A DNA stretch of 46,827 bases, taken from assembly GCA_913042105.1 (NCBI GenBank), contig CAJWIK010000001.1, positions 1 to 46,827 of the forward strand. Direction: 5' to 3'. This stretch comes from an uncultured Gammaproteobacteria bacterium. GTDB taxonomy: Bacteria; Pseudomonadota; Gammaproteobacteria; Magnimaribacterales; Magnimaribacteraceae. Every line of letters starts with the position of its first letter. Position 1 is the stretch's first letter. Below the pieces are notes generated by a model. That model saw only the letters and a list, made by a program, of their open reading frames with translations, ran no database searches and was not told the origin of the DNA. Both the position numbers and the translations under genes were made by a program. Shown here one piece after another: positions 4,886 through 26,684 of this stretch.

Positions 4886-4901
4886 TTTTATACCTATTTT
4901 A

Positions 4902-4929
4902 AATGAGAATGGGAATGATTATCATTTAC
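4902..4929. promoter_or_regulatory. Extended Fur box in the divergent receptor/hmuT promoter
   Basis: AATGAG-AATGGG-AATGAT-TATCATT hexamer array; 4908-4926 AATGGGAATGATTATCATT matches AATGATAATnATTATCATT at 16 of 18 defined positions; lies between divergent iron-uptake genes. Confidence 0.85.
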
Positions 4930-4953
4930 TTTAAAGATTAAATCAATACAATC

Positions 4954-5811
4954 ATGACTATGCGATTTTCTTCATTCTTTCTTTTAATGCTCTATGCTCC
5001 TATAGCTTGGTCAGATTGTTCAGCTGCTAAAGATGCTTCTAAAACTGTAATAGCTGGCGGTTCCTTAACTGAAATAGTTTATTTTCTTGAAGAAGAGGAA
5101 AAAATTATTGGTGTGGATGTTACTTCGAATTTTCCTAAAGCAACTTCTGACTTTCCCTCTATAGGCTATGTAAGAGCATTGTCTACTGAAGGGATATTAT
5201 CTTTAAAACCCACACTCATATTAGGCGAAGATGATATGGGCCCTCCCCTTGTAATAGAGCAATTATCTCTGACAGGTCTAGATGTTAGGATATTGGAAGA
5301 GGATCATTCGTCATCAGGTATTCTAAAAAAAATCGAATGTCTTTCAAAAGTCCTTGATACAAAAGCAAACGATACTTTGGCTAAAATAGATTTAGTTAAA
5401 GAAGATATAAATTACTTAAATAAGATATCTCAAATAAATAAAGTTTCAGGGATTAAAGTAATGCTAATTCTTAATATGCAAGGAACTTCACCTATTGTTG
5501 CTGGCCTTGGCACTTCAGGTGACGGCTTTATTAATATGACCGGGGCGAGTAATGCAGCAAATCAATTTGAAGGATGGAAGCCAATCAGTAGCGAAGCAAT
5601 TATTTCTTATAATCCTGATTATATTATTATTACCAACAGAGGTATGAGTTCTTTTCCAGACGTTCAAAGTTTAGCAAACACAACATCATTGAGGCTAACA
5701 AGTGCAGCCCAAAATGGAAGAATCTTACAAGAAGATGGAATGGCTATGCTTGGCTTCGGAACTAGAACAATTTCAACAGCAATACAATTTGCCAAAGTAT
5801 TTAGTGAATAA
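4954..5811 (+). CDS. hmuT: Heme ABC transporter periplasmic binding protein (HmuT/HutB/PhuT)
   Basis: Signal peptide; GGSLTEIVY, GVDVTS, and GYVRALSTEGILSLKP containing the heme-ligating Tyr of this family. Confidence 0.9.
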   Translation: MTMRFSSFFLLMLYAPIAWSDCSAAKDASKTVIAGGSLTEIVYFLEEEEKIIGVDVTSNFPKATSDFPSIGYVRALSTEGILSLKPTLILGEDDMGPPLVIEQLSLTGLDVRILEEDHSSSGILKKIECLSKVLDTKANDTLAKIDLVKEDINYLNKISQINKVSGIKVMLILNMQGTSPIVAGLGTSGDGFINMTGASNAANQFEGWKPISSEAIISYNPDYIIITNRGMSSFPDVQSLANTTSLRLTSAAQNGRILQEDGMAMLGFGTRTISTAIQFAKVFSE

Positions 5812-6848
5812 TGTCTTCTATTCTTTTTAAAAAATTTAGTGCCTTAAGATTTATTAATCCCTTCCAAACTGGAGTTCTAGCACTCTTATTTACTTCTCTC
5901 ATAGTCATATTTTTTGCTTCAATCTTTCTTGGAAGTTTTGATTTTTCTTTTGAAGAATTATTCAATGATTCAAATTCATTGGATAATATTGTTCTTTTAG
6001 AAATAAGAATTCCTAGGGTATTTTTAGCAGCCTTCGTAGGTGCCAGTCTTGGACTTTCTGGTGCATCTCTTCAAGGTCTATTCAGAAATCCTTTAGCAGA
6101 TCCGGGATTAATAGGTGTATCGGCCGGTGCTGCACTGGGTGCATCTTTAGTTATAGTCCTGGGTTCTGGTGTCCTTCCTGACTTCATATTTGGTACCCTA
6201 ATATTACCCATCTCAGCAATCATAGGAGCTTCATTGGTAATAAGCCTCTTGTATTTATTTACTCAAGGTTTTGGTTATCAAGGCATAACCTATATGCTTT
6301 TGGTTGGAATCGCAGTAAATGCTTTTGCTTCAGTTGGGATAGGCATACTGACTTATATCAGTACCGATTCAGAACTTAGAGGTTTGACCTTTTGGACAAT
6401 GGGAAGTTTTGGTGGAGCGTCGTGGCAACTAATAATGCCTGCTTTGATAATTATCTCCTTGACCATGCTGTGGATGATACCTTCATCGAGGAAATTAGAC
6501 CTCTTACAACTTGGCGAGCCCGAAGCATACAGACTAGGGGTCAATGTAAAAACACTTAAGTTCAAAGTGATTATTTCCTCAGCTATAACAGTGGGCATAA
6601 GCGTTTCATTGTCTGGAATGATTGGATTTGTAGGTCTAGTTGTTCCTCATTTAGTTAGGTTGATAGGTGGTGTAAACCATAATTATTTACTACCGGGTTC
6701 GGCTTTGCTTGGAGCGTCTCTGATGATGACAGCAGATTTGCTCTCAAGGACTTTGATACAACCCGCGGAATTGCCGGTCGGTTTAATAACCAGTGCAATT
6801 GGAGCGCCTTTCTTTTTATGGTTAATATTTAGAATAAGAAAGTCATGA
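5811..6848 (+). CDS. hmuU: Heme ABC transporter permease (FecCD family)
   Basis: IRIPRV, LQGLFRNPLADPGLIGVSAGA, GMIGFVGLVVPH, ELPVGLITSAIGAPFF; multiple TM segments. Confidence 0.92.
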   Translation: MSSILFKKFSALRFINPFQTGVLALLFTSLIVIFFASIFLGSFDFSFEELFNDSNSLDNIVLLEIRIPRVFLAAFVGASLGLSGASLQGLFRNPLADPGLIGVSAGAALGASLVIVLGSGVLPDFIFGTLILPISAIIGASLVISLLYLFTQGFGYQGITYMLLVGIAVNAFASVGIGILTYISTDSELRGLTFWTMGSFGGASWQLIMPALIIISLTMLWMIPSSRKLDLLQLGEPEAYRLGVNVKTLKFKVIISSAITVGISVSLSGMIGFVGLVVPHLVRLIGGVNHNYLLPGSALLGASLMMTADLLSRTLIQPAELPVGLITSAIGAPFFLWLIFRIRKS

Positions 6849-7618
6849 GTGTAGAAACCAAAAAATTAACGTGGGAAATAAAGTCTAAAAGAATTGTTGA
6901 TGAAATTTCCCTAAGTATTAATCAGGGAGAAATTCTAACTATTCTAGGTCCTAATGGAGCCGGTAAATCTTCTTTTCTAAAGTTAATATCGGGTGATTCT
7001 TCGGAAACAAGCGGAGAAGTTTTATACGATGACATCCAACTTTGTGAAATCTCTATTCAAGAAAGATCTTTTATGAGAAGTGTAATGTCTCAGTCCCAAG
7101 AGATAGCCTATGACTTTTCTGTAAAAGAAATCATAGAGATGGGCTGGATAGATAGGGGCATCTCAGATTACTCCAAAGATTTTGAAAATGCGGTTATTCA
7201 GATCTCAATTGAATGCTCGGTTAAGGAACTACTGGAGCAAAATTTTAATACCTTATCTGGGGGAGAAAAAAGAAGAGTTCATTTTGCTAGGACACTTATC
7301 CAATTATGGAGACCTTCGGGGTCATATGATCCGAGATATATGCTCTTAGATGAGCCCACAGCCAATTTAGATATACTGCATGAGCAGAGAATGATGAAAC
7401 TAATACAAAAGAAAAGAGATGAAGGTATTGGAGTTCTTCTTATACTTCATGATCTTAATCTTGCAGCTCAATATTCTGACCGTATTGCTATATTTAAAGA
7501 TGGAAAATTAGTAGAAATAGGAGTGCCTGAGAAAGTCATGAACGAAGAGACTTTGTCATCTGTTTATGAATTACAAATGACAATAGATAAAGATCCGTTC
7601 AGGATAAACTATTATTAA
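6845..7618 (+). CDS. hmuV: Heme ABC transporter ATP-binding protein
   Basis: Walker A GPNGAGKS, LSGGEKRRVHFARTLIQLW, Walker B LLDEPTANLD, LHDLNLAAQYSDR. Confidence 0.92.
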   Translation: MSVETKKLTWEIKSKRIVDEISLSINQGEILTILGPNGAGKSSFLKLISGDSSETSGEVLYDDIQLCEISIQERSFMRSVMSQSQEIAYDFSVKEIIEMGWIDRGISDYSKDFENAVIQISIECSVKELLEQNFNTLSGGEKRRVHFARTLIQLWRPSGSYDPRYMLLDEPTANLDILHEQRMMKLIQKKRDEGIGVLLILHDLNLAAQYSDRIAIFKDGKLVEIGVPEKVMNEETLSSVYELQMTIDKDPFRINYY

Positions 7619-7621
7619 ATT

Positions 7622-8353
7622 ATGAATACAAAGCGTGAAGAATATGAGAAAGATGCTGTAAGTCTTCTAAGAAGTACCAGCGAAGGAGTGCTTTCAACAA
7701 TTTCGGTAAGAAATGAGGGTTACCCTTTTGGAAGCTTTGTTACTTTCGTATCAGATGCAGACCGCAGCGTTGTTATCTATGCAAGTAATATTGCACAACA
7801 CACAATTAACTTAAAAGAGAATTCTAAGTCCTGTCTTACTCTTTTTAAGATAGAGGATGATCTCGATAAGCAGAATTCTTCAAGAATGACCCTCTTGGGT
7901 GATCTGAAAGCCTTACCTGAAGGAGAAATAGAAAATACCAGGAAAAGGTTTGAGAATTTTTTACCTGAAAGTAAAAAATATGCAGCCATGCATGATTTTA
8001 ATTTTTATCGCCTTTATATTTCTCAAGTTAGATGGATAGGAGGGTTTGGAAAAATTGCTTGGTTAGATAATAAAAAATGGAACTATCATCAGCCAAAATG
8101 GTTGAAAAATGAGGCTTCAATAATTGGGCATATGAACAATGATCATCAAAAGAATCTTTCTTCGTCTCTCAATGCCCAGCATGGTATAAAAGATAAAAAA
8201 GCGAAAATGTTCTCTATGTCTATTGATGGATACTACGTAAAATCTAAAGAAGAAATTTATTTCATCTACTTCGAAAATACCTGCGGTAATGTGAAAGATT
8301 ATAAGGATATGCTTGTTCAGCAGGCCGAGGAATATAGATCCTTCGAATTCTAA
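7622..8353 (+). CDS. HugZ/HOZ-like heme-utilisation protein: PNPOx-like split barrel plus C-terminal DUF2470
   Basis: GVLSTIS..GYPFGS, SNIAQHTINL, RMTLLG, HDFNFYRL, RWIGGFGKI, then IIGHMNNDH (DUF2470 signature); located in the heme operon. Confidence 0.82.
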   Translation: MNTKREEYEKDAVSLLRSTSEGVLSTISVRNEGYPFGSFVTFVSDADRSVVIYASNIAQHTINLKENSKSCLTLFKIEDDLDKQNSSRMTLLGDLKALPEGEIENTRKRFENFLPESKKYAAMHDFNFYRLYISQVRWIGGFGKIAWLDNKKWNYHQPKWLKNEASIIGHMNNDHQKNLSSSLNAQHGIKDKKAKMFSMSIDGYYVKSKEEIYFIYFENTCGNVKDYKDMLVQQAEEYRSFEF

Positions 8354-8356
8354 AAG

Positions 8357-9433
8357 ATGTTCGATAAAGACAATCTAGAAGCTCTTGAGTTGTTGATTGA
8401 TACTTATAATGACACTGATCAAGATACCTTAGTACTGATTGGTAAATATTATCTCAAACTAGATAAGGTAATACGAACAAGGATTGATAAGATTTCTGAG
8501 AAAGAAATCTCACTGATTATAAGTTTAGAAGATAAAGAAATTCATAAGAAAATTAAATTTCCTAAAACAGTCGATGGTGCGAGTGCTGTAAGCACTTTCT
8601 TATACTCATATCTATCTGAAGCAAGAATTAACGCTCCCAAAGATTATCCTAAAACCCGTCTAGAGAAACTTATAGAAAATACACTCAATTTAGAAACCTA
8701 CATAACTAATGTAAAAACTAAAAAAATAATATCTTCAAATATTATAGAAATTACTTTCGAAGGTGGTCTGGAAAATTTACCGGATCTTAAGAATGATGCC
8801 TTTATGTATTTTATGGTTCATAAAGAGATAGATCATAAATTTCCGAAAAATTTTACAATACAGAATTTTAGATCATTAAGTTCACAAGAGAATAATCCCT
8901 ATTCAGCAGCCTATTACACTATAAAATCTTATAGAGAAAATGAAATTGATGTCTGGTTTGTCCTTCATGATCATCCTGGGCCATTAGCAATTTGGGCAGA
9001 TCAGGTTAAAGAAGGATCTTCAGTAGCAATTTGGGGGCCCCGAACAGTCTTCTCTCCGCCAAAGGAGACAAATAATTATCTTTTTATCGCCGATGAGACT
9101 GCACAACCAGCAGTACTTTCTGCAATAGAGAATCTACATAAAAATCATAGCTATACCTGCTTATTTGAAACACAAAATAAGTCCAGTAGGTTTAAAATAA
9201 ATGATCCCAATAATCAAATTTCATGGATTTACAGGGATCAAGAATTAGCAGGCGAAGGTACTGAATTAATAAAATGTATAGAGAGGCTAAACCTAAATTC
9301 AAAAAACTTATATGTGTTCGGCGCAGGTGAAGCTAAGCAAATATCTTCCATCAGAAAAATACTTAAGAGACAATTTAATCTTGGGACTAAACAGATGAGC
9401 TTTACCGGATACTGGAGAAAACTAGCTAATTAA
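8357..9433 (+). CDS. Siderophore-interacting protein (FAD-dependent ferric reductase, ViuB/YqjH-like) with ~100-aa N-terminal DUF2470-like extension
   Basis: YYTIK, FVLHDHPGPLAIWA, GPR, ADETAQPA, GAGEA, terminal GYWRK. The extra N-terminal domain follows the DUF2470 pattern. Confidence 0.8.
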   Translation: MFDKDNLEALELLIDTYNDTDQDTLVLIGKYYLKLDKVIRTRIDKISEKEISLIISLEDKEIHKKIKFPKTVDGASAVSTFLYSYLSEARINAPKDYPKTRLEKLIENTLNLETYITNVKTKKIISSNIIEITFEGGLENLPDLKNDAFMYFMVHKEIDHKFPKNFTIQNFRSLSSQENNPYSAAYYTIKSYRENEIDVWFVLHDHPGPLAIWADQVKEGSSVAIWGPRTVFSPPKETNNYLFIADETAQPAVLSAIENLHKNHSYTCLFETQNKSSRFKINDPNNQISWIYRDQELAGEGTELIKCIERLNLNSKNLYVFGAGEAKQISSIRKILKRQFNLGTKQMSFTGYWRKLAN

Positions 9434-17092: not shown

Positions 17093-17965
17093 ATGACAAT
17101 CGTTCACAATTTTTCTAAATCTAGCAAGAGAAATCTCAGTATTTTGAGTATTTTTATTTTACTGATTACCCTTGCTTCGTGTTCTTCTAATGAAGAAATG
17201 CCGGATGAAAGGCTCATAGAGAAAGAGCTTTATGATCAAGCCCAGACAAGACTGAAGAATGGAAGTTACTCAACAGCAATATATAGTTTGGAGGCTCTTG
17301 AATCGAGATTTCCATTTGGTAGATATGCTGAACAAGCCCAAGCAGAACTGATCTATGCCTATTATATGAATGCCCAATTTGAAGCTAGTCAATCTGCATC
17401 CGAACGTTTCATTAATCTTCATCCTAGACACTCACATACGGGATATGCCTTTTACATGAAGGGCTTAGCTGCTTTTACAGATGATTCGGGTTTATTCTCA
17501 AGATATTTCCAATCTGATCTGGCCAAAAGAGAAATCGTAATGGCCCAAACTTCCTTTGACGAACTGTCGGATTTCATTTCTAGATATCCAGGCAGCACAT
17601 ATGTTTCTCATGCTCAACAAAGGATGATTTATCTAAAAAACCTGTTAGCGAATCATGAAATTTATGTAGCTGACTTTTATATGAAAAGAGGTGCTTACTT
17701 AGCAGCTATCGGTAGAGCTAAGTATGTAATAGAGCACCTGCCTAATACGCCACAAACTCCTTTTGCTCTTTCTATTTTAGTAGAGGCTTATGAAATTCTT
17801 GGCTACGACGAATTAAGAACTACCAGCTTAGAAATACTTAATGCAAATTATCCTAACTTCGATTTAGAAAAGAACGAATCAGTCAAAGAACGTTCATGGA
17901 CTAATCTACTTACTCTCGGTCTATTGGGAAAAGAAGACGTCAAAAGACCAGAAGCATCTGAATAA
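17093..17965 (+). CDS. bamD: Outer membrane protein assembly factor BamD
   Basis: Lipobox LASC, RFPFGRYAEQAQ, RFINLHPRH, YMKRGAYLAA; divergent from rluD. Confidence 0.95.
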   Translation: MTIVHNFSKSSKRNLSILSIFILLITLASCSSNEEMPDERLIEKELYDQAQTRLKNGSYSTAIYSLEALESRFPFGRYAEQAQAELIYAYYMNAQFEASQSASERFINLHPRHSHTGYAFYMKGLAAFTDDSGLFSRYFQSDLAKREIVMAQTSFDELSDFISRYPGSTYVSHAQQRMIYLKNLLANHEIYVADFYMKRGAYLAAIGRAKYVIEHLPNTPQTPFALSILVEAYEILGYDELRTTSLEILNANYPNFDLEKNESVKERSWTNLLTLGLLGKEDVKRPEASE

Positions 17966-17967
17966 AA

Positions 17968-18171
17968 ATGTGGCAGTTTCTGATACTAGTTTCAGTAATA
18001 ATATCAGTTTATATACTCACTAAAATAAACAGCCAATCGCGCAAGGCTTTAAAAAATAATCGAACAAAAACTGAAATAGTGAAATGTAAGGTATGTAATT
18101 TAAATATACCTCAAACAGAAGCCATTAGAGTGGATGGAACATGGTGTTGCGCAAAAAAACATATTCATTAA
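17968..18171 (+). CDS. Small membrane-anchored Cys/His protein, PP0621-family-like
   Basis: N-terminal TM helix then VKCKVC..IP..EA.....WCC...H putative metal-binding motif; directly after bamD. Confidence 0.65.
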   Translation: MWQFLILVSVIISVYILTKINSQSRKALKNNRTKTEIVKCKVCNLNIPQTEAIRVDGTWCCAKKHIH

Positions 18172-20465
18172 AACCGATATCTTAGTTTAATTGTAAAATT
18201 ATCAGCCTGGGGATTGTCCCAAGGTCTTTGATAGAGTTCGCTTAAGCTATCCTCTTCATCAGTGGCAACTATTCTTCCGCCTTTAGAATACACAACGTAC
18301 AAATATGCCAATGGAAGAATCTCATATCTATATCTTATCTGAAAAGCTAAGTCACTTAGAGTAATTGGGTCCAGAGATATTTCCGATGTAGCATTTAAAT
18401 TTCCATCAAAACTTCCCAGGTATGCAATAGGATTTCTAGCAGTGAAAGCTACCATCTGAGCTTTTATCCTTAATTCATGCTTGTCGTTTTTGAACCATTG
18501 CAATCCTGCTACGGTAGTTCTTTGTTTCTTATCATAGGTGCCTAATAAGTTTCCTTGTAACCAATTTAACCACTTATCTTCTTTATTATGCTGATGATAA
18601 ATAGAAAAATTTAGGTTTCCACTGGGAGAAAAATCTATTTTCCCAGAATAGGTTGTTGCCCATCCTAATGTTGGGGCAAATTGATTACCTTGATCACGTT
18701 TCACCTCTAAGAAATAATTGAAAAAATCTGCAGAGGGTCCTAAATATTGCAGTCTCGCACCGTAGCCAGCTGGCATATTTATAAAGGGTGCAGCTTCATC
18801 TCTTCTGGTTATCCAAAAGTCTTTTCCGGAGGTTCTAAAACTTGATTCAATTTCTATTCTTGAAGTGTTTTGGAAGGTATTAGTTACCTTTAAAGATAGC
18901 CCATCATTTGCCCGATCTCCAGATGCGTTTGTTTGAGTGGAATAACCAAACTCATATTCTCTGGACATGTTTATTGAATCAGTTTGAAAATCATTAACTT
19001 TGTATTTACTTTGACCGGCAAGAATAGCCCAGTTATTGGTTACCAAATAACCCATGTCTCCCAAGTCTAAATCCTCATCGAAATAAAAGAACCCAATATC
19101 ATGAGACAATTTTTTTGTCGGGGCAGCCACCAGTCTAAACCTGAAACCATTTCCCGTATCTCCGTCTATATTAGAATTAAGTAAAATGGTGGCTATTCTT
19201 GTCTTGTCATTTGGTCTATATGCCAAATCAAAGGAATGAACGCTTGCGTCCCTTCCAAGCACAGGTCGCTCGACATAAGTCCCTAAATAACCAAGCGAAT
19301 AATCAGTGCTAGTTTTTCGTCCCCTTATAGCAAAGAAATCTCTCCCTTGACTAAAATCTTGATCTGCTTCCGAAGCTGCAAGGACACCGAAATCAAAAGA
19401 CTCTCCTTGTTGCGTATATCTCGCTGCTAAATCAATATCTGATGTCCCAAGTTTTGAGGAAGAGCAGATAGCTTGTAAGTTTTCTGCAAATTTAGAGCAA
19501 TCATAATCCGGAGCAGCTCCAATTCTTCTTGTATTAATGACGTAAAAAAATTCGTATCCTTTGACGTTAAATAAAGAATGGTTTTCTGAAAAGAAAGGTC
19601 TTTTATCTGAGTAGAAAGTTTCATTTGCTGTGAAATTAACGACGAGTTCATCACTTTCAACTTGTCCAAAGTCAGGGTTAATGGCTATATTCAATTGCTT
19701 ACCTGAATCTATTTTCCAGAATATCTCTGCTCCTGTTTTTGTATCGACTTCTTCTGAAATCCTATCTTCGGTCACATTTATATAAGGAAAGAAATCTATT
19801 TTTGAGATGCTAGAATTCTTGAATTTCATCTCATTAAATGTAGACATGAACTCATCAGTGTAGGGATTACCTTTTATCGTGGCATTCACCTTGTATGCTC
19901 CGACAACCATTCTGTAAAACCCGAGCCTAACAGTCCTGTAATCTCCACTTTGCACTTTCATGGGTGCTATCGACCAAGGAATAAACATTTCTGCATACCA
20001 AACATCTTCGCCTATTGATGTTGCAGATCCCCAATCGGCATCCCAGTCTGGATTACTTTCATTCTCATTTTTGTATGTACCATCACCTTTAGATCCACTC
20101 ACTGAAAGAGAAAAAGAATAAGCTGAAATATTATCTCCATCGAAATCTATATTCACACCGACTCGATCTGCATTTGGTCTCTCAAGATCCCTCTCATGCT
20201 TATTGGATCTAATGCTTTCAGTAGATTGGTAATTTATAAAACCAAAATAAATACCTTTCTCATCTTCCAGAACTAATACTTTTTGGTCGTATTTAGGCTC
20301 TTCCAAAGTGAATGGATAAACCTCATAAAATTTAGTTACTTCTCTGGCCTCAGCCCATTCAGCCTCATTGATCTTTCCATCTATAAGTATTGCAGAAAAG
20401 AAAAATGGACTTAAAAGAAGAAGGCAAAAGGAAGTTAGTAATTGGAGAGATGACTTTATAGACAA
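18168..20465 (-). CDS. DUF5916-type predicted outer-membrane beta-barrel with N-terminal CBM9/DOMON-like domain (paralog C)
   Basis: TTG start with GAGGA RBS, signal peptide, IDGKINEAEW, WYAEMFIPW, NPDFGQVESD, DKRPFFSE, TRRIG, C-terminal KLRYRF. Confidence 0.82.
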   Translation of the reverse strand: MSIKSSLQLLTSFCLLLLSPFFFSAILIDGKINEAEWAEAREVTKFYEVYPFTLEEPKYDQKVLVLEDEKGIYFGFINYQSTESIRSNKHERDLERPNADRVGVNIDFDGDNISAYSFSLSVSGSKGDGTYKNENESNPDWDADWGSATSIGEDVWYAEMFIPWSIAPMKVQSGDYRTVRLGFYRMVVGAYKVNATIKGNPYTDEFMSTFNEMKFKNSSISKIDFFPYINVTEDRISEEVDTKTGAEIFWKIDSGKQLNIAINPDFGQVESDELVVNFTANETFYSDKRPFFSENHSLFNVKGYEFFYVINTRRIGAAPDYDCSKFAENLQAICSSSKLGTSDIDLAARYTQQGESFDFGVLAASEADQDFSQGRDFFAIRGRKTSTDYSLGYLGTYVERPVLGRDASVHSFDLAYRPNDKTRIATILLNSNIDGDTGNGFRFRLVAAPTKKLSHDIGFFYFDEDLDLGDMGYLVTNNWAILAGQSKYKVNDFQTDSINMSREYEFGYSTQTNASGDRANDGLSLKVTNTFQNTSRIEIESSFRTSGKDFWITRRDEAAPFINMPAGYGARLQYLGPSADFFNYFLEVKRDQGNQFAPTLGWATTYSGKIDFSPSGNLNFSIYHQHNKEDKWLNWLQGNLLGTYDKKQRTTVAGLQWFKNDKHELRIKAQMVAFTARNPIAYLGSFDGNLNATSEISLDPITLSDLAFQIRYRYEILPLAYLYVVYSKGGRIVATDEEDSLSELYQRPWDNPQADNFTIKLRYRF

Positions 20466-20554
20466 GCGGTTTCCTCGATTTTAAGGTGAGCATTCTAAAG
20501 ATATAGGAAAAGAATAGCTATCTGAATTAGCACTTAAAGGGCTTACAAAAGTAA

Positions 20555-22864
20555 TCAGAATCTATATCTAACCTTAAGAGTGAAATTGTCTGCTTGAGGA
20601 TCGTTCCAAGGTCGCTGATATAGCTTACCCAAGTCATCTTCCTCATCAGTCTCTACGATTCTCCCTCCTTTGGAATACACCGCATACAAATAAGCTAAGG
20701 GCATAATTTCATATCTATATCTTATTTGAAAGGCTAAGTCGCTTAAGTTGATTGGAGTCAGTGCAATATCACTTGCATTAAGGTCTCCATAAGAATCTCC
20801 TAAAACAGCCTGTGGATTTGTAGCTAAGAATGAAACCATTTGAGCTTTGATTCTTAACTCATGCTTATCACCAACAAACCAGTTAAACCCTGCAACTGTT
20901 GTTCTTTGTTTTTTGGCATAAACCCCCAAGAGATTATCTTGAATCCAATTTACCCAACCATCTTCGTTTAGGTGCTGATAATAAAGTGAAAAGTTAATGT
21001 TATCGCTTGGAGCAAACTCAAGCTGTGTCGCATAAGAAGTAGCAAAGCCAGAAGCTGAAGCCCATTGCGAGCCCTTTTCTCTCTTAGCCTCTAAAAAGTA
21101 ATTAAAAAAGTCTTGAGAAGGTCCTTTAAAATTTAAAAGCGATCCGTAATTTTCGGGTCTTTTAATGTAAGGAGCTTCTATATTATTTCTTGTAATCCAG
21201 AAATCTTTTCCTGAAGTTCTGTAGAAGTTAGTGAATTCAAAAAAAGAAGTATTTTTGAAAGTAGATTTGTAAGTAAGGTAAGTAAAATTCCAAGATTTAT
21301 CTAAATCAGCGTTACTTTCCACACCTAAACCAAACTCAAACTCATTTGACTGAATTATTGAAGATGCATCGAAGTCTGTGAACTTAAATCCATTCTGAGC
21401 TCCTAAGAACATCCAGTTATTCAACATCTGATAACCCATATCATTGATATCAATATTTTCATCAAAGTAAAAAAGACCTACATCATGCCATCTTCCTTTT
21501 TTCGGAGAAGAGGTAAACCTCAATCTAAATGCCTCGCCTGAGGTGCTATGGGGATTTACCAAACCTTGATCTATGCTAGAAGTCATGAAAACAGCATTTG
21601 TTCTAATTTTATCGGTTGGATTGTAAATCACATCAACGGCATGGACTTCTGCCTCTCGATCCAGAACAGGTCTTTCGGTATAAGTCCCTATATATCCTAC
21701 TGATAAATTATCAGTATTTTTTCGAGCTCTTACGGAATAAAAGTCCCTGCCTTGACTGAATTGCTCGTCAGCCTCCGAAGCTCCTAAAAAACCAAAGTCG
21801 ATGGACTCATTTTGCTGGGTATATCTTACGGCATAATCTATATCAGAAATTCCAACTTGGCTGGATTCACACAAATCTTTAAGAGAATCAGCATAACTGG
21901 AGCAGTTATAATCTGGCGAAGCGCCTATTCTTCTAGTATTTATAAGATAAAAAAACGTGTAGCCTTTGACATCAAATAGAGAATGATTTTCTGAAAAGAA
22001 AGGTCTTTTATCAGAATAAAATGTTTCGCTAGAAGTAAAATTTACTACCAGCTCATCACTTTCTACTTGTCCAAAATCAGGGTTGAGAGCTACATTAAGT
22101 TGTTTACCAGCATCTATCTTCCAGAATATTTCTGCACCAGCTTTTTTATTTGTTTCAGCCAAAACTCTGTCTTCAGTTAGGTTAATATAAGGAAAGAAAT
22201 CTAGCTTTGAAACACTGTAATTATTAAACTCGTATTCATTAAATAAGGATAAGAACTTTTCGGTCCTTGGATTTCCTTTAATGGTTGTATTAACTTTAAA
22301 TTCTCCTCTTAACCACCTATAAAAAGAAAGCTTAACCTTCCTTTTATCGCCTTGTTGAGATTTCATGGGAGCTATACTCCAAGGTATAAATATTTCTGCA
22401 TACCAAACACCTTCATCTATACTTGTGCCATAACCCCAATCAGAATCCCAGTCGTAGTTAACTTCATTTTCATTTCTAACGACATTATCAAGAATTGATC
22501 CGCCCGCAGAAACAGAAAAACCATAAGACAAGAGACCATCTCCATCAAAATCAATTGATACACCGACCATATCGGCATTAGCCATTTCGTCATCTCTTTG
22601 ATGCTTTTGAGTTCTAATACTTTCGTTGGATTGATAGGTTATAAAACCAAAGTAAATGCCCTTTTCATCTTCAAGTACTAAGACTTTTTGAGCACCAGAA
22701 GCATCATCTAGAGTAAAGGGCATACTTTCATAATATTTGGTTATCTCATCTGCTTGAGACCATTCTTTTTCATCGAGCTTTCCATCGATAATGAGATCGA
22801 AAGAAAAAATGTGTAAAGAACAAAATACTAAAAGTAATAATGAAAAAGTAAGCTTCCTATGCAA
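20555..22864 (-). CDS. DUF5916-type predicted outer-membrane beta-barrel with CBM9/DOMON-like domain (paralog B)
   Basis: TTG start with AGGGG RBS, IDGKLDEKEW, WYAEIFIPW, NPDFGQVESD, DKRPFFSE, TRRIG, C-terminal KVRYRF. Confidence 0.82.
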   Translation of the reverse strand: MHRKLTFSLLLLVFCSLHIFSFDLIIDGKLDEKEWSQADEITKYYESMPFTLDDASGAQKVLVLEDEKGIYFGFITYQSNESIRTQKHQRDDEMANADMVGVSIDFDGDGLLSYGFSVSAGGSILDNVVRNENEVNYDWDSDWGYGTSIDEGVWYAEIFIPWSIAPMKSQQGDKRKVKLSFYRWLRGEFKVNTTIKGNPRTEKFLSLFNEYEFNNYSVSKLDFFPYINLTEDRVLAETNKKAGAEIFWKIDAGKQLNVALNPDFGQVESDELVVNFTSSETFYSDKRPFFSENHSLFDVKGYTFFYLINTRRIGASPDYNCSSYADSLKDLCESSQVGISDIDYAVRYTQQNESIDFGFLGASEADEQFSQGRDFYSVRARKNTDNLSVGYIGTYTERPVLDREAEVHAVDVIYNPTDKIRTNAVFMTSSIDQGLVNPHSTSGEAFRLRFTSSPKKGRWHDVGLFYFDENIDINDMGYQMLNNWMFLGAQNGFKFTDFDASSIIQSNEFEFGLGVESNADLDKSWNFTYLTYKSTFKNTSFFEFTNFYRTSGKDFWITRNNIEAPYIKRPENYGSLLNFKGPSQDFFNYFLEAKREKGSQWASASGFATSYATQLEFAPSDNINFSLYYQHLNEDGWVNWIQDNLLGVYAKKQRTTVAGFNWFVGDKHELRIKAQMVSFLATNPQAVLGDSYGDLNASDIALTPINLSDLAFQIRYRYEIMPLAYLYAVYSKGGRIVETDEEDDLGKLYQRPWNDPQADNFTLKVRYRF

Positions 22865-22906
22865 TATATATCCCCTGATGGGAAATTAGTTTATAGATTA
22901 AAGGGG

Positions 22907-25186
22907 CTAAAATCTATATCTTAGCTTAATGGTAAAATTTTCATCGGAAGGATCATTCCAAGGTCTTCTGTAGAGGTTTGACAGATCATCCTCTTCATCA
23001 TTAAGAGAAACTCGACCGCCCTTAGAATAGACCAAGTAAAGATAAGAAAGAGGCATGATCTCATATCTATACCTAACCTGAAATGCTAACTCGCTTATTG
23101 TAATAGGTGATATAGAGATATTTATTGGTGTTAAATTTCCTTTTTGATCTCCTAGATAAGGAGTAGGATTTCTTCCGGTGAATGCTACAAGTTGAGCTTT
23201 TATTCTTAACTCGTGTTTATTGTTTTTAAACCACTCAAGCTCAAAAACGCTTGTTCTCTGTTTTCTTTCATAAGTGGCTAAAAGATTATCATCTAGCCAA
23301 TTTAGCCAATTTTTCTCATCGGAGAGATTATAGGACATGTTGAATGACAAGTTATCGCGAGGCATAAACTTGATAAAAGCTCTAGAAGAGTTTTTCCAAC
23401 TTATCCCCGGAGAGTGCTCACTACCCTTACCTCTTTCAAACCTCAGACTGTAAATATACTTTGGCTTTCGTGGACCAGTAAATTCTATATAACCTCCAAT
23501 CCCTTTGGGCATGTCGATATAAGGAGCCAAAGGAGACCCTCTGGTGATTCTTGTATTTCTACCGGTACTTCTATAAAAAATTTCAGTTTTTACTTCAGAC
23601 AAATCGATGAAATTTGTCTGAACTTTTAAAGCAAAGTTTGAAGATTCCCGAACTGTATCGGCATTAAATTTAGATCCATAACCAATCTCAAATAATCTAG
23701 ATCTAAGAATAGAACCCTCTGAAAATCTTGTCTTTTTAAATTGGGTCCTACCATTGAACATTAAACGGTCATTTAATATGAGGTACCCCATATCATTAAG
23801 ATCGAGCTGATCATCATAAAAAATTATGCCTACACCAGACGAAAAGTCTTGATCAGGGTTATATGAATAACCCATTGTTAAACCGAAGCCGTCTTGATTG
23901 TTCACGTTTGAATGCATCAAATTACCATTCATTCTATGGACTGCAGATGGAAGATACATAAAGTCCACTGAATTAACTTGGGCATTCTTACCTAAAACAG
24001 GCTTATCAACATATGTCCCTAAATACCCATATTTAAAGTCATTAGCTTTTGTATTGAGCCTTAGTGCATAAAAATCTCTACCTTGCGAAAATTTTTCATC
24101 CCTTTCAGATGCACTCATAAAACCAAAATCTACTTTACCTTTTTGTGTATATTTCAAAGCAAAATCTATCTCACTTGTTTCTGCCTGAGTTTCTTGGCAG
24201 TAATCTTCTAGATCACCGTATACTTCACAATCATAATCAGGTCTTCCACCTATCCTTCTCGTGTTAATGATTCTATGCATACGATCACTTACATCGAACA
24301 TACTATTATTTTCAGCAAAGAATGGTCTCTTATCCGAATAGAAGGTTTCAAAAGCAGAGAAATTCACAACAACCTCATCGCTCTCAACTTGTCCGAAGTC
24401 TGGATTCAATGCGAGGTTGAGCTGTTTACTTGAATTAATTTTCCAAAAAATTTCAGCTCCTGCTTTTGAGATTTGATCTGAATTAGCAATGTCTTCAGTT
24501 AGGGTTGTATAGGGGAAAAAATCTAGTTTAGCTACTGAATAGTTATTAAACTGATATTCGTCAAAGACAGATAAATAGACATTCTCATAGACGCTTCCTT
24601 TGATAGTTGAAAGGCCTCTTCCAACCCCCATAAGCATTCTGTAAAAAGCCATTTTTATCTTTCTTTTTTCACCTGTTTGCGTTTTCATTGAGGCAATCGA
24701 CCAAGGTATAAAAGTCTCTGAATACCAAACTCCGTCCTTAACCGTAGCGGCAGATTGCCAATCTGCATCCCAATCCCAATTTCTCTCTTTTTCGTCTGTT
24801 ACGGTTGCATCACCGACTGAACCGCTAGAAGAGATAAAAAAGTTATAACCTTCAATGCCATCACCATCAAAATCGATTACTATTCCATTTTTATCGGATA
24901 TTGATCGCTCTTGGTCGCGCAAGTGATTATTTATTCTCATCGTTTCATTGGTCTGGTAGTTTTTAAAACCAAAATACAGGCCATTCTCAGATTCAATAAT
25001 CAATATTTGCGTTTTGTATTCGTTTACTTCTCTTAGAGAATATGGATAAACTTCATAAAACTTGTCTACCACTTGAGCTTTCTGCCATTCTGCTTCATCG
25101 AGCAATCCATCAATTTTAATTTCAGATTTAAGAGAAAATGACAATACGACACTCAGGATAAGACCTGTAATCTGAAAATAGCCCAT
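22907..25186 (-). CDS. DUF5916-type predicted outer-membrane beta-barrel with CBM9/DOMON-like domain (paralog A)
   Basis: ATG start abutting the upstream gene, IDGLLDEAEW, WYSETFIPW, NPDFGQVESD, DKRPFFAE, TRRIG, C-terminal KLRYRF. Confidence 0.82.
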   Translation of the reverse strand: MGYFQITGLILSVVLSFSLKSEIKIDGLLDEAEWQKAQVVDKFYEVYPYSLREVNEYKTQILIIESENGLYFGFKNYQTNETMRINNHLRDQERSISDKNGIVIDFDGDGIEGYNFFISSSGSVGDATVTDEKERNWDWDADWQSAATVKDGVWYSETFIPWSIASMKTQTGEKRKIKMAFYRMLMGVGRGLSTIKGSVYENVYLSVFDEYQFNNYSVAKLDFFPYTTLTEDIANSDQISKAGAEIFWKINSSKQLNLALNPDFGQVESDEVVVNFSAFETFYSDKRPFFAENNSMFDVSDRMHRIINTRRIGGRPDYDCEVYGDLEDYCQETQAETSEIDFALKYTQKGKVDFGFMSASERDEKFSQGRDFYALRLNTKANDFKYGYLGTYVDKPVLGKNAQVNSVDFMYLPSAVHRMNGNLMHSNVNNQDGFGLTMGYSYNPDQDFSSGVGIIFYDDQLDLNDMGYLILNDRLMFNGRTQFKKTRFSEGSILRSRLFEIGYGSKFNADTVRESSNFALKVQTNFIDLSEVKTEIFYRSTGRNTRITRGSPLAPYIDMPKGIGGYIEFTGPRKPKYIYSLRFERGKGSEHSPGISWKNSSRAFIKFMPRDNLSFNMSYNLSDEKNWLNWLDDNLLATYERKQRTSVFELEWFKNNKHELRIKAQLVAFTGRNPTPYLGDQKGNLTPINISISPITISELAFQVRYRYEIMPLSYLYLVYSKGGRVSLNDEEDDLSNLYRRPWNDPSDENFTIKLRYRF

Positions 25187-25579
25187 TTAATCTATAACAG
25201 TGATATTTATTTTTTGTGAGATTACCGGAGGATCATGTGGTGTATGAGTCATATTTCCAAGAACAAGTTGCATAGAATAGCTACCAGGCAATAACTCAAC
25301 AAGTGATTCGGTTTGCCCTCCTCCAAAATGAATATGATTTGAAGAGGAAGGTATAGGTTTAGATAAATCAATATCATTTACGTTGATAAGCAAATGATGA
25401 TGACCTGTATTGTTCCTATCCGTACCTGCAGGTGCTATGCCCATATCTGATAATCCAAATTGGATAAGAAAGGGTGATTGCACTTGGTCTCCATCATTGA
25501 GATTAATAAAGTAGACCTTTGCTTCAGAAGAAATAAAAGAAGATAAAAAAAGAAATGAGGAGAATATAAAATATTTCAT
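25187..25579 (-). CDS. DUF4399 family exported His-rich protein
   Basis: Signal peptide; VYFINLNDG, FGL..MGIAPAG, TGHHHLLI, HIHFGGGQTE, LVLGNMTHTPHDPPV. Confidence 0.82.
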   Translation of the reverse strand: MKYFIFSSFLFLSSFISSEAKVYFINLNDGDQVQSPFLIQFGLSDMGIAPAGTDRNNTGHHHLLINVNDIDLSKPIPSSSNHIHFGGGQTESLVELLPGSYSMQLVLGNMTHTPHDPPVISQKINITVID

Positions 25580-25580
25580 A

Positions 25581-26057
25581 TTAATTTAAGTACTTACCGG
25601 ATCCGTAGAGGAGCGGTTGAAGATCATCATTATTTAATACCTTTGAAACTCTGCCAATGACAATCGTATGACTAGAATGATCTATTAAATCTGTACATTC
25701 ACAAAATAAAGTAGATAAAGATTCTTGATTATAAATATAACTGCCGTCATCTTTCCAGGCATTGTTCAGAAACCTTGTTTCGCCCTCTTCACTATTACTG
25801 CATATTTCTGCTATATCTTTCTGTTCACTGGATAACGTGTTGATACAAAAAGAAGAATCAACTGCAATAATGCCGTGAATCGAAGCTTCTTTATTGATGC
25901 ATACAAGCATAGAAGGAGGGTCTACAGATAATGATGTAACAGATATTGCGGTCATGGCATGTCTTAAGGTATCTGATTTAGCAGAGATAACACACACAGT
26001 TGATGTTGAACTACGCATGGAGGTTAAGAAGTTTTTCTTGAGATCTGATTTTTTCAT
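25581..26057 (-). CDS. Flavin reductase family protein (HpaC/RutF-like split barrel)
   Basis: AMTAISVTSLSVDPPSMLVCIN, FCINTL, SHTIVIGRV, PLLYGSGKY. Confidence 0.92.
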   Translation of the reverse strand: MKKSDLKKNFLTSMRSSTSTVCVISAKSDTLRHAMTAISVTSLSVDPPSMLVCINKEASIHGIIAVDSSFCINTLSSEQKDIAEICSNSEEGETRFLNNAWKDDGSYIYNQESLSTLFCECTDLIDHSSHTIVIGRVSKVLNNDDLQPLLYGSGKYLN

Positions 26058-26120: not shown

Positions 26121-26684
26121 ATGGTGAAAAGACAAGCAGCAACAAGAATTATTGGTGGAAAATATAAAGGAACTAAACTTGTATTTAAGCCAAACAAGAT
26201 GCTACGACCAACTGAAAGCAAGACTAAAGAAACTCTTTTTAATTGGCTTCTCAATGATTTAGATAAAAAAAAATGCTTAGATATGTTTGCCGGAACAGGT
26301 TCACTTGGACTAGAGGCTATTTCAAGAGGAGCTAGTAATGTTGTATTCATTGAAAAACAATTAAAACTTTCTCAGTCAATTATTGATATCGCTAAAAAAC
26401 TTAAAATAGAAAAAATCTCTAGAGTAATAAATACAAACTCAATTTCGTTTGATTATAAAACTTTGAAACAGAAGTTTGATATCATTTTTCTAGATCCCCC
26501 ATTTCATGAGAATCTTATTCCAAAGTCTTTAGAAGTAATCTGTAACCAAAATCTTTTAAATGAAGGAGGGTTAATCTACGTTGAATGTGAGAAGGATTTA
26601 AAATTAGATCTTTCTAAATTCGATCTAAATGAATTGAAGGAATCCAAAGGCGGGGAAACCAAATACTATTTATATGAAGGCTAG
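26121..26684 (+). CDS. rsmD: 16S rRNA (guanine(966)-N2)-methyltransferase
   Basis: RIIGGKYKG, LRPT, ETLFNWL, LDMFAGTGSLGLEAISRGA, FLDPPF. Confidence 0.96.
   Translation: MVKRQAATRIIGGKYKGTKLVFKPNKMLRPTESKTKETLFNWLLNDLDKKKCLDMFAGTGSLGLEAISRGASNVVFIEKQLKLSQSIIDIAKKLKIEKISRVINTNSISFDYKTLKQKFDIIFLDPPFHENLIPKSLEVICNQNLLNEGGLIYVECEKDLKLDLSKFDLNELKESKGGETKYYLYEG

What the first reader, a model, noticed from the sequence alone, without database searches (positions are those of the whole stretch)
18168..26057. Uncharacterised five-gene envelope system: flavin reductase + DUF4399 + three tandem DUF5916-type outer-membrane barrels
Seen: five co-oriented genes. The flavin reductase, DUF4399 and first barrel gene are separated by only 1 and 0 nt. 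Three intact ~765-aa paralogs follow, occupying ~7 kb of an otherwise minimal genome. Each has a signal peptide, a CBM9/DOMON-like N-domain (IDGxxxExEW...WYxExFIPW), shared NPDFGQVESD / DKRPFF / INTRRIG blocks and a terminal RYRF beta-signal. I see no TonB box or TBDR plug motif. Knowledge: I know of no established function for DUF5916 or DUF4399. Inference: a TonB-independent uptake or sensing barrel family with a tethered binding domain, working with a His-rich periplasmic protein and a cytoplasmic reductant supplier. The paralogs may be heteromer subunits or have divided substrates. This is the best candidate for an undescribed system in the window.
Basis: partly seen in the sequence, partly recalled or inferred. 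Interest (0 to 1): 0.8.

Follow-up and report, generated by a model that had tools for sequence, protein, structure and literature searches.

The report
Plugged 24-strand outer-membrane barrel trio
Three neighbouring genes of a marine SAR86-type bacterium encode diverged copies of an unstudied protein predicted to be a plugged outer-membrane barrel with a sugar-binding-type domain on its inner side, likely selective uptake channels with different cargoes, whereas the two small genes in front stay with them only within this lineage.

Summary
The five genes, their spacing and motifs are real. The five-gene system is not supported. The three DUF5916 paralogs are predicted (pLDDT 94, pTM 0.91) to be 24-stranded outer-membrane barrels with an 81-residue loop-2 plug and a periplasmic CBM9/DOMON-fold domain (Z 17.3 to CBM9-2). 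They are not TonB-dependent receptors by architecture, and no solved structure matches the whole protein. Each copy is under purifying selection. Paralog clades share the plug and the wall that holds it, but differ on the opposite lumen wall (89% identity within clade B, 27% between C and B) and in the CBM9-pocket segment. This favours separate channels with different cargoes over a fixed heteromer. The reductase and DUF4399 sit upstream in 20 of 20 genus relatives that have them, in 2 of 15 barrel-bearing genomes of other SAR86 families, and in 0 of 87 non-SAR86 loci; the reductase follows rsmD, not the barrel. Cargo, direction and TonB independence are untested. The scan reported this family before on other DNA, including a SAR86 triplet (e1-4090363). 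No paper names DUF5916 in the library searched.

The parts
22907..25186 (-). DUF5916 paralog C (759 aa); first in the array in every genus relative examined
20555..22864 (-). DUF5916 paralog B (769 aa); the copy that was modelled
18168..20465 (-). DUF5916 paralog A (765 aa); clade found in only 3 genomes, on the B side of the tree
22802..22864 (-). B: probable signal peptide (21 aa), followed directly by the CBM9-like IDG motif
   Evidence: sequence, by eye
22217..22801 (-). B: CBM9/DOMON-fold N-domain (mature residues 1-195), periplasmic by topology
22568..22591 (-). B: residues 71-78, the segment aligned with the Trp71 sugar-clamp loop of CBM9-2; conserved within and different between paralog clades
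20558..22207 (-). B: predicted 24-stranded beta-barrel (residues 199-748) ending in RYRF
21842..22084 (-). B: 81-residue loop between strands 3 and 4 (NPDFGQVESD, KRPFF, TRRIG, Cys300-Cys311 hairpin); inferred plug, the most conserved region of the family
20939..21550 (-). B: strands 10-19, whose inferred lumen-facing residues are paralog-specific
25187..25579 (-). DUF4399 protein: exported Ig/FnIII-like sandwich with five invariant His; lineage-specific neighbour
25581..26057 (-). HpaC/RutF-like flavin reductase, no signal peptide, the only PF01613 gene found in the assembly; travels with rsmD
26121..26684 (+). rsmD-type methyltransferase, divergent flank (synteny marker)
17093..17965 (+). 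bamD (YfiO), convergent flank (synteny marker)

Best explanation
The three large genes are diverged, individually conserved copies of a DUF5916 protein predicted to be a plugged 24-stranded outer-membrane barrel with a CBM9-fold domain on its periplasmic side, and each likely works on its own as a selective uptake channel for a different organic solute. Inferred mechanism: loop 2 folds into the lumen and is held by invariant charged residues on strands 1-9 and 20-24, leaving a narrow path along strands 10-19; the paralog-specific residues of that wall select the solute, and the CBM9-like domain under the barrel would catch it, acting as a periplasmic sink or lid. The plug is an internal loop, not an N-terminal domain, so the TBDR pull-the-plug mechanism would not apply as such; whether any energy source is used is open. 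The reductase and DUF4399 are likely ordinary neighbours in a slowly rearranged SAR86 chromosome segment (rho-rsmD-...-bamD-rluD). Shown: genes, families, selection, divergence pattern, gene order. Predicted: fold. Inferred: sidedness, plug position, channel function, direction, cargo difference.
For: Fold: 748-residue model, mean pLDDT 94.3, pTM 0.91; 24 amphipathic strands with 2-8 residue turns on one side and the long loops on the other; 76 of 123 family rows end in Phe. N-domain matches CBM9-2 (1i82, Z 17.3, rmsd 2.9, 166 aligned) and 4jpq (Z 17.3); its profile finds only 1i82 in the PDB (E 0.0012). Periplasmic side: barrel topology, and 5 of 22 long homologues carry an N-terminal SPOR domain. 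Plug: 15 of 81 loop-2 positions are >=90% conserved against 3 of 155 lipid-facing ones, and 11 of 159 lumen-facing ones; covariation links loop 2 to lumen-facing strand residues and loop 8 (D297-R377, L275-D335, S258-W535) and strand 3 to strand 4 (K233-Y327). Specialisation: lumen-facing residues of strands 10-19 are 89% identical within clade B (14 rows) but 27% between C and B, against 90% and 65% on the plug-side wall; pocket segment 71-78 is 95% within B, 33% C/B, 12% B/remote. dN/dS 0.04-0.11 in 6 of 6 measurable orthologue pairs. Works singly: 13 of 15 barrel-bearing genomes of other SAR86 families show one match (one further genome shows two pieces of one gene). Near-universal in SAR86: 37 of 41 genomes, 19 of 20 at >=90% completeness, against 17 of 300 in the class. 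SAR86 is described as relying on outer-membrane uptake of lipids and carbohydrates (PMC3358033, passages).
Against: No cargo, catabolic gene cluster or inner-membrane transporter recurs next to the gene across lineages, which is unusual for a dedicated uptake system. The CBM9 aromatic clamp is not kept at the Trp71 position (aromatic in 5 of 100 at the aligned column), so sugar binding is not shown. I had no access to model coordinates: plug position and pore width are inferred from topology, conservation and alignment ranges. Clade C is itself only 66% identical on the variable wall, so part of the divergence may be relaxed constraint. N-domain-to-barrel covariation was noisy (Meff 194). SPOR fusions fit a structural tether equally well.
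Confidence: 0.5

Rival explanations
1. The barrel is an envelope tether or sensor: the periplasmic CBM9-like domain binds peptidoglycan or its fragments and links the outer membrane to the wall, with the lumen sealed.
For: SPOR domains fused in front in 5 of 22 long homologues. A periplasmic CBM9-like domain is needed for sensing peptidoglycan damage in Shewanella PghK, ligand not identified (bioRxiv 10.1101/2023.05.05.539549, passages). Orphan gene kept in nearly all SAR86. bamD is the convergent neighbour also in non-SAR86 genome G093.
Against: A tether needs no paralog-specific lumen wall. The gene is found in only 17 of 300 class genomes.
Confidence: 0.17
2. The barrel is an export pore (polysaccharide, lipid or protein), with the CBM9-like domain feeding substrate from the periplasm, working like AlgE/PelB or an usher.
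For: Same strand number as ushers (24, recalled); binding-type domain on the periplasmic side suits export; one homologue record is fused behind an AcrB-type domain (P0305) and one has an AcrB gene two genes upstream (L063).
Against: No recurring glycosyltransferase, pilin, chaperone or efflux neighbours in the loci scanned; usher match is generic (FimD Z 14.8, 307 aligned, below MtrB and TBDR rows).
Confidence: 0.15
3. The barrels are energised importers that use a TonB-family motor acting on the N-domain rather than on a classical TonB box.
For: 35 of 36 barrel-bearing genomes encode TonB_C; 4 of 16 barrel-bearing class genomes have >=7 TonB_C matches against 7 of 284 others (Fisher p 0.0014, kin not independent). 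An 81-residue plug plus inward loops may need energy to open.
Against: TonB_C is present in 284 of 300 class genomes, so presence is uninformative; the mature chain starts 2-4 residues before the CBM9 IDG motif, leaving no free N-terminal arm; one 91% complete genome has the barrel and no TonB_C match (G331, 3 kb contig). Lifestyle can explain the enrichment.
Confidence: 0.1
4. One reading: a five-gene system in which the reductase supplies reduced flavin and DUF4399 is the periplasmic partner of the barrels, possibly as an A/B/C heteromer.
For: Gaps of 1 and 0 nt; order kept in 20 of 20 genus relatives that have both small genes and in G035 and G038 of another family.
Against: The rsmD-bamD interval of family f3 shows every combination: reductase+DUF4399+barrel(s) (G035, G038), reductase+barrel with no DUF4399 found (G029), reductase+DUF4399 with the barrel 390 kb away (G026), reductase alone (G032). 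0 of 87 non-SAR86 barrel loci hold either gene. 14 of 31 barrel-bearing genomes have no PF01613 match, and the nearest in the others is 43 kb away. DUF4399 co-occurs in 4 of 13 non-SAR86 barrel genomes against 50 of 284 others (p 0.26), never on the same contig. The third tandem copy belongs to different clades in different lineages.
Confidence: 0.05
5. A porin-cytochrome electron conduit: a haem-binding DOMON domain inside an MtrB-like barrel.
For: Best barrel match is MtrB (6r2q_B, Z 17.1, rmsd 4.9); N-domain also matches the haem b subunit EbdC (2ivf_C, Z 14.2).
Against: No His reaches 40% and no Met exceeds 70% conservation in 100 N-domains; no recurring cytochrome c neighbours; lumen is occupied by the protein's own loop.
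Confidence: 0.03

Closest known systems
Pfam DUF5916 (PF19313), often with CBM9_1 (PF06452)
   Same: All three proteins pass the cut-off; Atlas clusters at 0.99 are DUF5916 clusters with CBM9_1 on 10-12% of members.
   Different: Nothing sets these copies outside the family; the g1 copies carry a Cys hairpin insertion in the plug. The family has no function in the literature searched.
TonB-dependent transporters (BtuB, FhuA, Cir)
   Same: Large monomeric barrel with an occluded lumen, paralog expansion with divergent specificity, same hosts (12 PF00593 matches in this assembly). Works like: probably, as selective uptake.
   Different: 24 predicted strands against 22 (recalled); plug is an internal loop after strand 3, not an N-terminal domain; no PF00593/PF07715 or NCBIfam TBDR hit; Z 13-16 only.
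CBM9-2 of Thermotoga maritima Xyn10A (1i82) and DOMON superfamily
   Same: Same fold, Z 17.3; only PDB hit of the N-domain profile; acidic IDG...D and D...ID motifs align.
   Different: Trp71 clamp position not conserved; family-specific insertion with invariant W118/D119; attached to a barrel, not to a glycoside hydrolase.
Substrate-specific channels (OprD/Occ, LamB, chitoporin)
   Same: Likely facilitated diffusion through a lumen narrowed by inward-folded extracellular loops (knowledge; inference).
   Different: Those have 16-18 strands (recalled), no periplasmic binding domain; Z 11-13.
MtrB and FimD/PapC ushers
   Same: Barrels of similar size: MtrB Z 17.1, FimD Z 14.8.
   Different: No cytochrome or pilus partners near the gene; plug type and N-domain differ; rmsd 3.7-4.9 at 6-11% identity indicates size-driven similarity.

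Membership tests
Pfam DUF5916 | Score above gathering cut-off | tested here: met
   95.2, 99.9, 96.2 bits against 22.6
Outer-membrane beta-barrel | Even number of amphipathic antiparallel strands, short turns on one side, C-terminal aromatic | tested here: met
   24 strands in the model of B, turns 2-8 residues, RYRF end; prediction only
TonB-dependent transporter | 22-stranded barrel (recalled) | tested here: not met
   24 strands counted from the DSSP
TonB-dependent transporter | N-terminal plug domain / TBDR profile hit | tested here: not met
   No PF07715/PF00593 hit and no NCBIfam hit, while the control receptor at window 2711-4885 hits 31 families; N-domain is CBM9-fold
TonB-dependent transporter | TonB box | tested here: inconclusive
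   Motif scan missed the control too; little room before the IDG motif
TonB-dependent transporter | Transport needs TonB-ExbBD | not testable with these tools
   Co-occurrence uninformative
CBM9 | CBM9/DOMON beta-sandwich fold | tested here: met
   Z 17.3, rmsd 2.9, 166 aligned to 1i82
CBM9 | Aromatic clamp, Trp71 side (PMC8280721, passages) | tested here: not met
   Aligned column 74 aromatic in 5 of 100; column 72 in 23 of 100
CBM9 | Aromatic clamp, Trp175 side | tested here: inconclusive
   Outside the aligned stretch; F183 is aromatic in 91 of 100 and lies in the corresponding part of the domain
CBM9 | Binds carbohydrate | not testable with these tools
   Needs a binding assay
Fimbrial usher | Chaperone and pilin genes adjacent; usher profile hit | tested here: not met
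   No such neighbour in the window or among neighbours scanned, no usher Pfam hit
MtrB/porin-cytochrome or haem DOMON | Conserved haem ligands or multihaem partner gene | tested here: not met
   No conserved His, Met at most 70%; no recurring cytochrome c neighbour
   2 of 15 in other SAR86 families, 0 of 87 outside SAR86
   Only RNA-run contigs, which also bridge divergent and convergent borders
Pfam DUF4399 | Score above cut-off | tested here: met
   115.2 bits against 28
HpaC/RutF-like flavin reductase | PF01613 above cut-off | tested here: met
   100.9 bits against 27; below all 8 NCBIfam equivalog cut-offs, so no named subtype

The most novel reading that the evidence does not exclude
DUF5916 is an unrecognised class of outer-membrane transporter: a 24-stranded barrel plugged by its own extracellular loop 2, with a built-in periplasmic CBM9-type trap that replaces both the TonB motor and a separate binding protein, giving high-affinity uptake at no proton cost. 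SAR86 keeps it as a near-core gene and one genus has repeatedly duplicated it to widen its diet of dissolved organic matter.
Probability: 0.3. Interest if true: 0.8.

Novelty: new variant of a known kind. Interest (0 to 1): 0.48.

Why it matters
How oligotrophic marine bacteria move dilute organic matter across the outer membrane is mostly read from TonB-dependent receptors. A second, unannotated family of large plugged barrels, present in 19 of 20 near-complete SAR86 genomes and in thousands of protein clusters (9625 representatives at E<=0.001), would be a missing route and would be overlooked in metaproteomes as 'hypothetical' or 'carbohydrate-binding'. The predicted architecture has no whole-protein match among solved structures. 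It is testable now: cultured Lysobacter, Pseudoxanthomonas, Luteibacter and Colwellia relatives carry homologues, and the paralog-specific wall and pocket residues give targets for swaps. The five-gene redox story should not be pursued.

Tried and rejected
PDB sequence searches with B and with the full-length profile found nothing real; DUF4399 likewise. NCBIfam has no model for the barrels or DUF4399. Promoter and terminator scan: 18 promoter-like sites against 28.2 expected, 7 terminator-like against 4.0 +/- 2.4; no information. RNA: 20 runs on record as marine metatranscriptomes of one year (possibly one campaign) hold 64-80% of the words; in the 4 laid, contigs cover all 30 bins but also bridge the divergent rsmD/reductase and convergent bamD/A borders, and DNA carry-over was not excluded, so neither co-transcription nor level is shown. 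TonB-box motif scan failed its positive control. TonB presence test had no power (95% background). Covariation between N-domain and barrel was dominated by hub columns and is not used. DUF4399 model (pLDDT 92.5) is a generic Ig/FnIII sandwich, best Z 9.6; CopC appears only as a weak Foldseek row (E 0.0046, TM 0.39), so no family is assigned; its neighbours outside SAR86 do not recur (50 proteins scanned). N-domain and DUF4399 are unrelated (hhalign 0.4%). The maximum-likelihood tree did not finish; FastTree was used, deep branches are unreliable. The first neighbour screen used a non-overlap ORF filter that lost some genes; it was repeated on all six frames with profiles. Haem-DOMON and usher readings rejected as above.
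Full report
Observation. The five ORFs are intact on the minus strand at the stated coordinates, with gaps of 1, 0, 42 and 89 nt. Pfam gives Flavin_Reduct, DUF4399 and three DUF5916 hits well above cut-off. The assembly (1.32 Mb, 75% complete) holds no further DUF5916 or DUF4399 match. The closest named loci are SAR86 genomes (75% and 69% identity), so the host is taken to be SAR86.

Fold. AlphaFold2 on mature paralog B with a 123-row alignment gave mean pLDDT 94.3 and pTM 0.91. Reading its secondary structure, residues 1-195 form a beta-sandwich and residues 199-745 form 24 long strands. Hydrophobicity alternates along the strands, connections on one side are 2-8 residues and the long ones fall on the other, as in outer-membrane barrels with both termini in the periplasm. 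An 81-residue segment (240-320) sits between strands 3 and 4, on the extracellular side by this topology. It carries NPDFGQVESD, KRPFF and TRRIG and is the most conserved region (15 of 81 positions at >=90%). Conserved strand residues are mostly lumen-facing and lie on strands 1-10 and 19-24. Covariation in 394 sequences (Meff 194) pairs strand 3 with strand 4 and loop 2 with lumen-facing residues and loop 8. I infer that loop 2 folds in as a plug. I could not see coordinates, so pore width is unknown.

N-domain. It matches CBM9-2 of T. maritima (1i82, Z 17.3, rmsd 2.9) and a Bacteroides putative carbohydrate-binding protein (4jpq, Z 17.3), and more weakly the haem subunit EbdC (Z 14.2). A profile of 100 N-domains finds only 1i82 in the PDB (E 0.0012). 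CBM9-2 clamps sugar between Trp71 and Trp175 (PMC8280721, passages); the column aligned with Trp71 is aromatic in 5 of 100 homologues, and no His or Met is conserved enough for haem. The family has its own insertion with invariant W118/D119. Many TBDR alignments begin at model residues 66-73 or 111-117, which hints that these N-domain loops reach into the barrel mouth; this is indirect. SPOR domains precede the N-domain in 5 of 22 long homologues, which fits a periplasmic location.

Comparison of barrels. The best solved match is MtrB (Z 17.1, rmsd 4.9, 433 aligned), then TBDRs and FimD at Z 13-16 and 6-11% identity. No entry covers both domains. The proteins fail the TBDR tests of strand number and N-terminal plug; the TonB-box scan was inconclusive. 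TonB_C is present in 35 of 36 barrel-bearing genomes but also in 284 of 300 class genomes; barrel-bearing genomes are enriched among TonB-rich ones (4 of 16 against 7 of 284), so 'TonB-independent' remains an inference from architecture.

The three copies. All 4 near-complete genomes of the genus have three copies, either three in tandem or two plus one elsewhere. A FastTree tree of 68 full-length rows (fragments under 690 aa left out) splits the 52 genus rows into clades C (20), B (14), A (3), D (4), E (5) and remote (6). The window has C-B-A, four other genomes have C-D-E, and many have C-B with or without a remote copy. In other SAR86 families and other Gammaproteobacteria one copy is the rule. 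A fixed heterotrimer is therefore unlikely. dN/dS is 0.04-0.11 in 6 of 6 measurable orthologue pairs; two further pairs were saturated. Divergence is lopsided: lumen-facing residues of strands 10-19 are 89% identical within clade B and 27% between C and B, against 90% and 65% on the plug-side wall, and the segment aligned with the CBM9 clamp loop is 95% within B, 33% C/B and 12% B/remote. Clade C is looser (66% on the variable wall). This is the pattern expected of channels with a shared gate and different selectivity.

The two small genes. In the genus, reductase and DUF4399 lie directly upstream of copy C in 20 of 20 relatives that have them (24 searched), but so do rho, rsmD, bamD and rluD. 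In the other three SAR86 families 15 of 16 genomes have a barrel; 2 keep the full order. Family f3 shows all combinations between rsmD and bamD, including reductase+DUF4399 without barrel (G026) and reductase alone (G032); G028 and G034 have rsmD-reductase-DUF4399 with no barrel beside it. Family f4 has no PF01613 match in 5 of 5. Profiles of both genes find nothing in 87 of 87 non-SAR86 barrel loci (66 of them >=12 kb). DUF4399 co-occurrence in the class sample is at background (4 of 13 against 50 of 284). DUF4399 is an exported Ig/FnIII-like sandwich with five invariant His in 43 rows, a plausible metal site. The reductase is cytoplasmic by sequence and more likely serves flavin-dependent monooxygenases elsewhere, such as the luciferase-like gene on contig 2 (inference).

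Neighbours elsewhere. Recurring neighbours are lineage-bound (suf genes and a SET protein in Xanthomonadales-type loci, a peptidase and a glycerophosphodiesterase in Pseudohongiella-type loci). Twelve scattered class loci share none. No cargo can be read from context.

Literature. 'DUF5916' returns 0 papers. PF19313, 'DUF 5916' and three recalled identifiers (IPR045670, cd09618, CBM9_like_2) have 0 occurrences in the 26 listed of 28 hits; one search returns 0; some searches were seen as listings only and show no title on this family. DUF4399 appears once each in 3 listed papers, not read. Read as passages: PMC3358033, PMC8280721, bioRxiv 10.1101/2023.05.05.539549. Supplements were not opened; proteomics tables could hold these proteins under other names, and subscription journals are not covered. 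Strand numbers of TBDRs, ushers, MtrB and porins are recalled.

Earlier notes of this scan report the same family on other DNA: a SAR86 triplet behind a reductase, seven-copy arrays in Acidobacteriota, SPOR and BlaI fusions, and a 24-strand plugged model. I saw them before folding; the fold, gene-order and divergence results above are my own tests.

Verdict. A real, catalogued but unstudied family with a predicted architecture not matched by solved structures. Most likely three independent selective outer-membrane channels (0.5). The five-gene system is not supported (0.05). Class tallies include one genome marked unpublished (G077) as a single count and omit G256.

Noticed in passing
window 2711-9433: A haem/iron uptake block: haemoglobin/haem-type TonB-dependent receptor, divergent periplasmic binding protein, FecCD permease, ABC ATPase, CREG/PNPOx+DUF2470 protein and siderophore-interacting protein.
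   Followed up: partly
L057:8253-11873 (G093): The closest non-SAR86 homologue among the class loci (438 bits) is also convergent with bamD, as in the window, so the barrel-bamD arrangement may be old.
   Followed up: partly
P0334, P0353, P0354, P0355, P0362: Homologues with an N-terminal SPOR domain on a long linker, 5 of 22 long homologues scanned.
   Followed up: partly
P0305: A 1836-aa record joining an AcrB-type domain, a signal-peptide-like stretch and a full DUF5916 protein; single record, may be a read-through or assembly artefact.
   Followed up: no
window 25187-25579: DUF4399 has five invariant His (GHHH, HFG, H..PH) on an Ig-like fold and occurs in 58 of 300 class genomes as an orphan; a candidate periplasmic metal-binding protein in its own right.
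   Followed up: partly
L189:4924-9762 (G004) and L185, L193, L201, L074: The remote fourth-type copy in the genus sits in a separate conserved run of co-oriented genes (YdjM-type protein, a 453-aa probable oxidoreductase in most, then a tyrosine-phosphatase-family gene).
   Followed up: no
L140: A record titled Klebsiella pneumoniae carries two DUF5916 copies with neighbours shared with Pseudohongiella-type loci; the label looks doubtful.
   Followed up: no
L224 (G331:C10): The only barrel-bearing genome of 36 with no TonB_C match; 91% complete and the gene is on a 3.2 kb contig, so weak evidence.
   Followed up: partly
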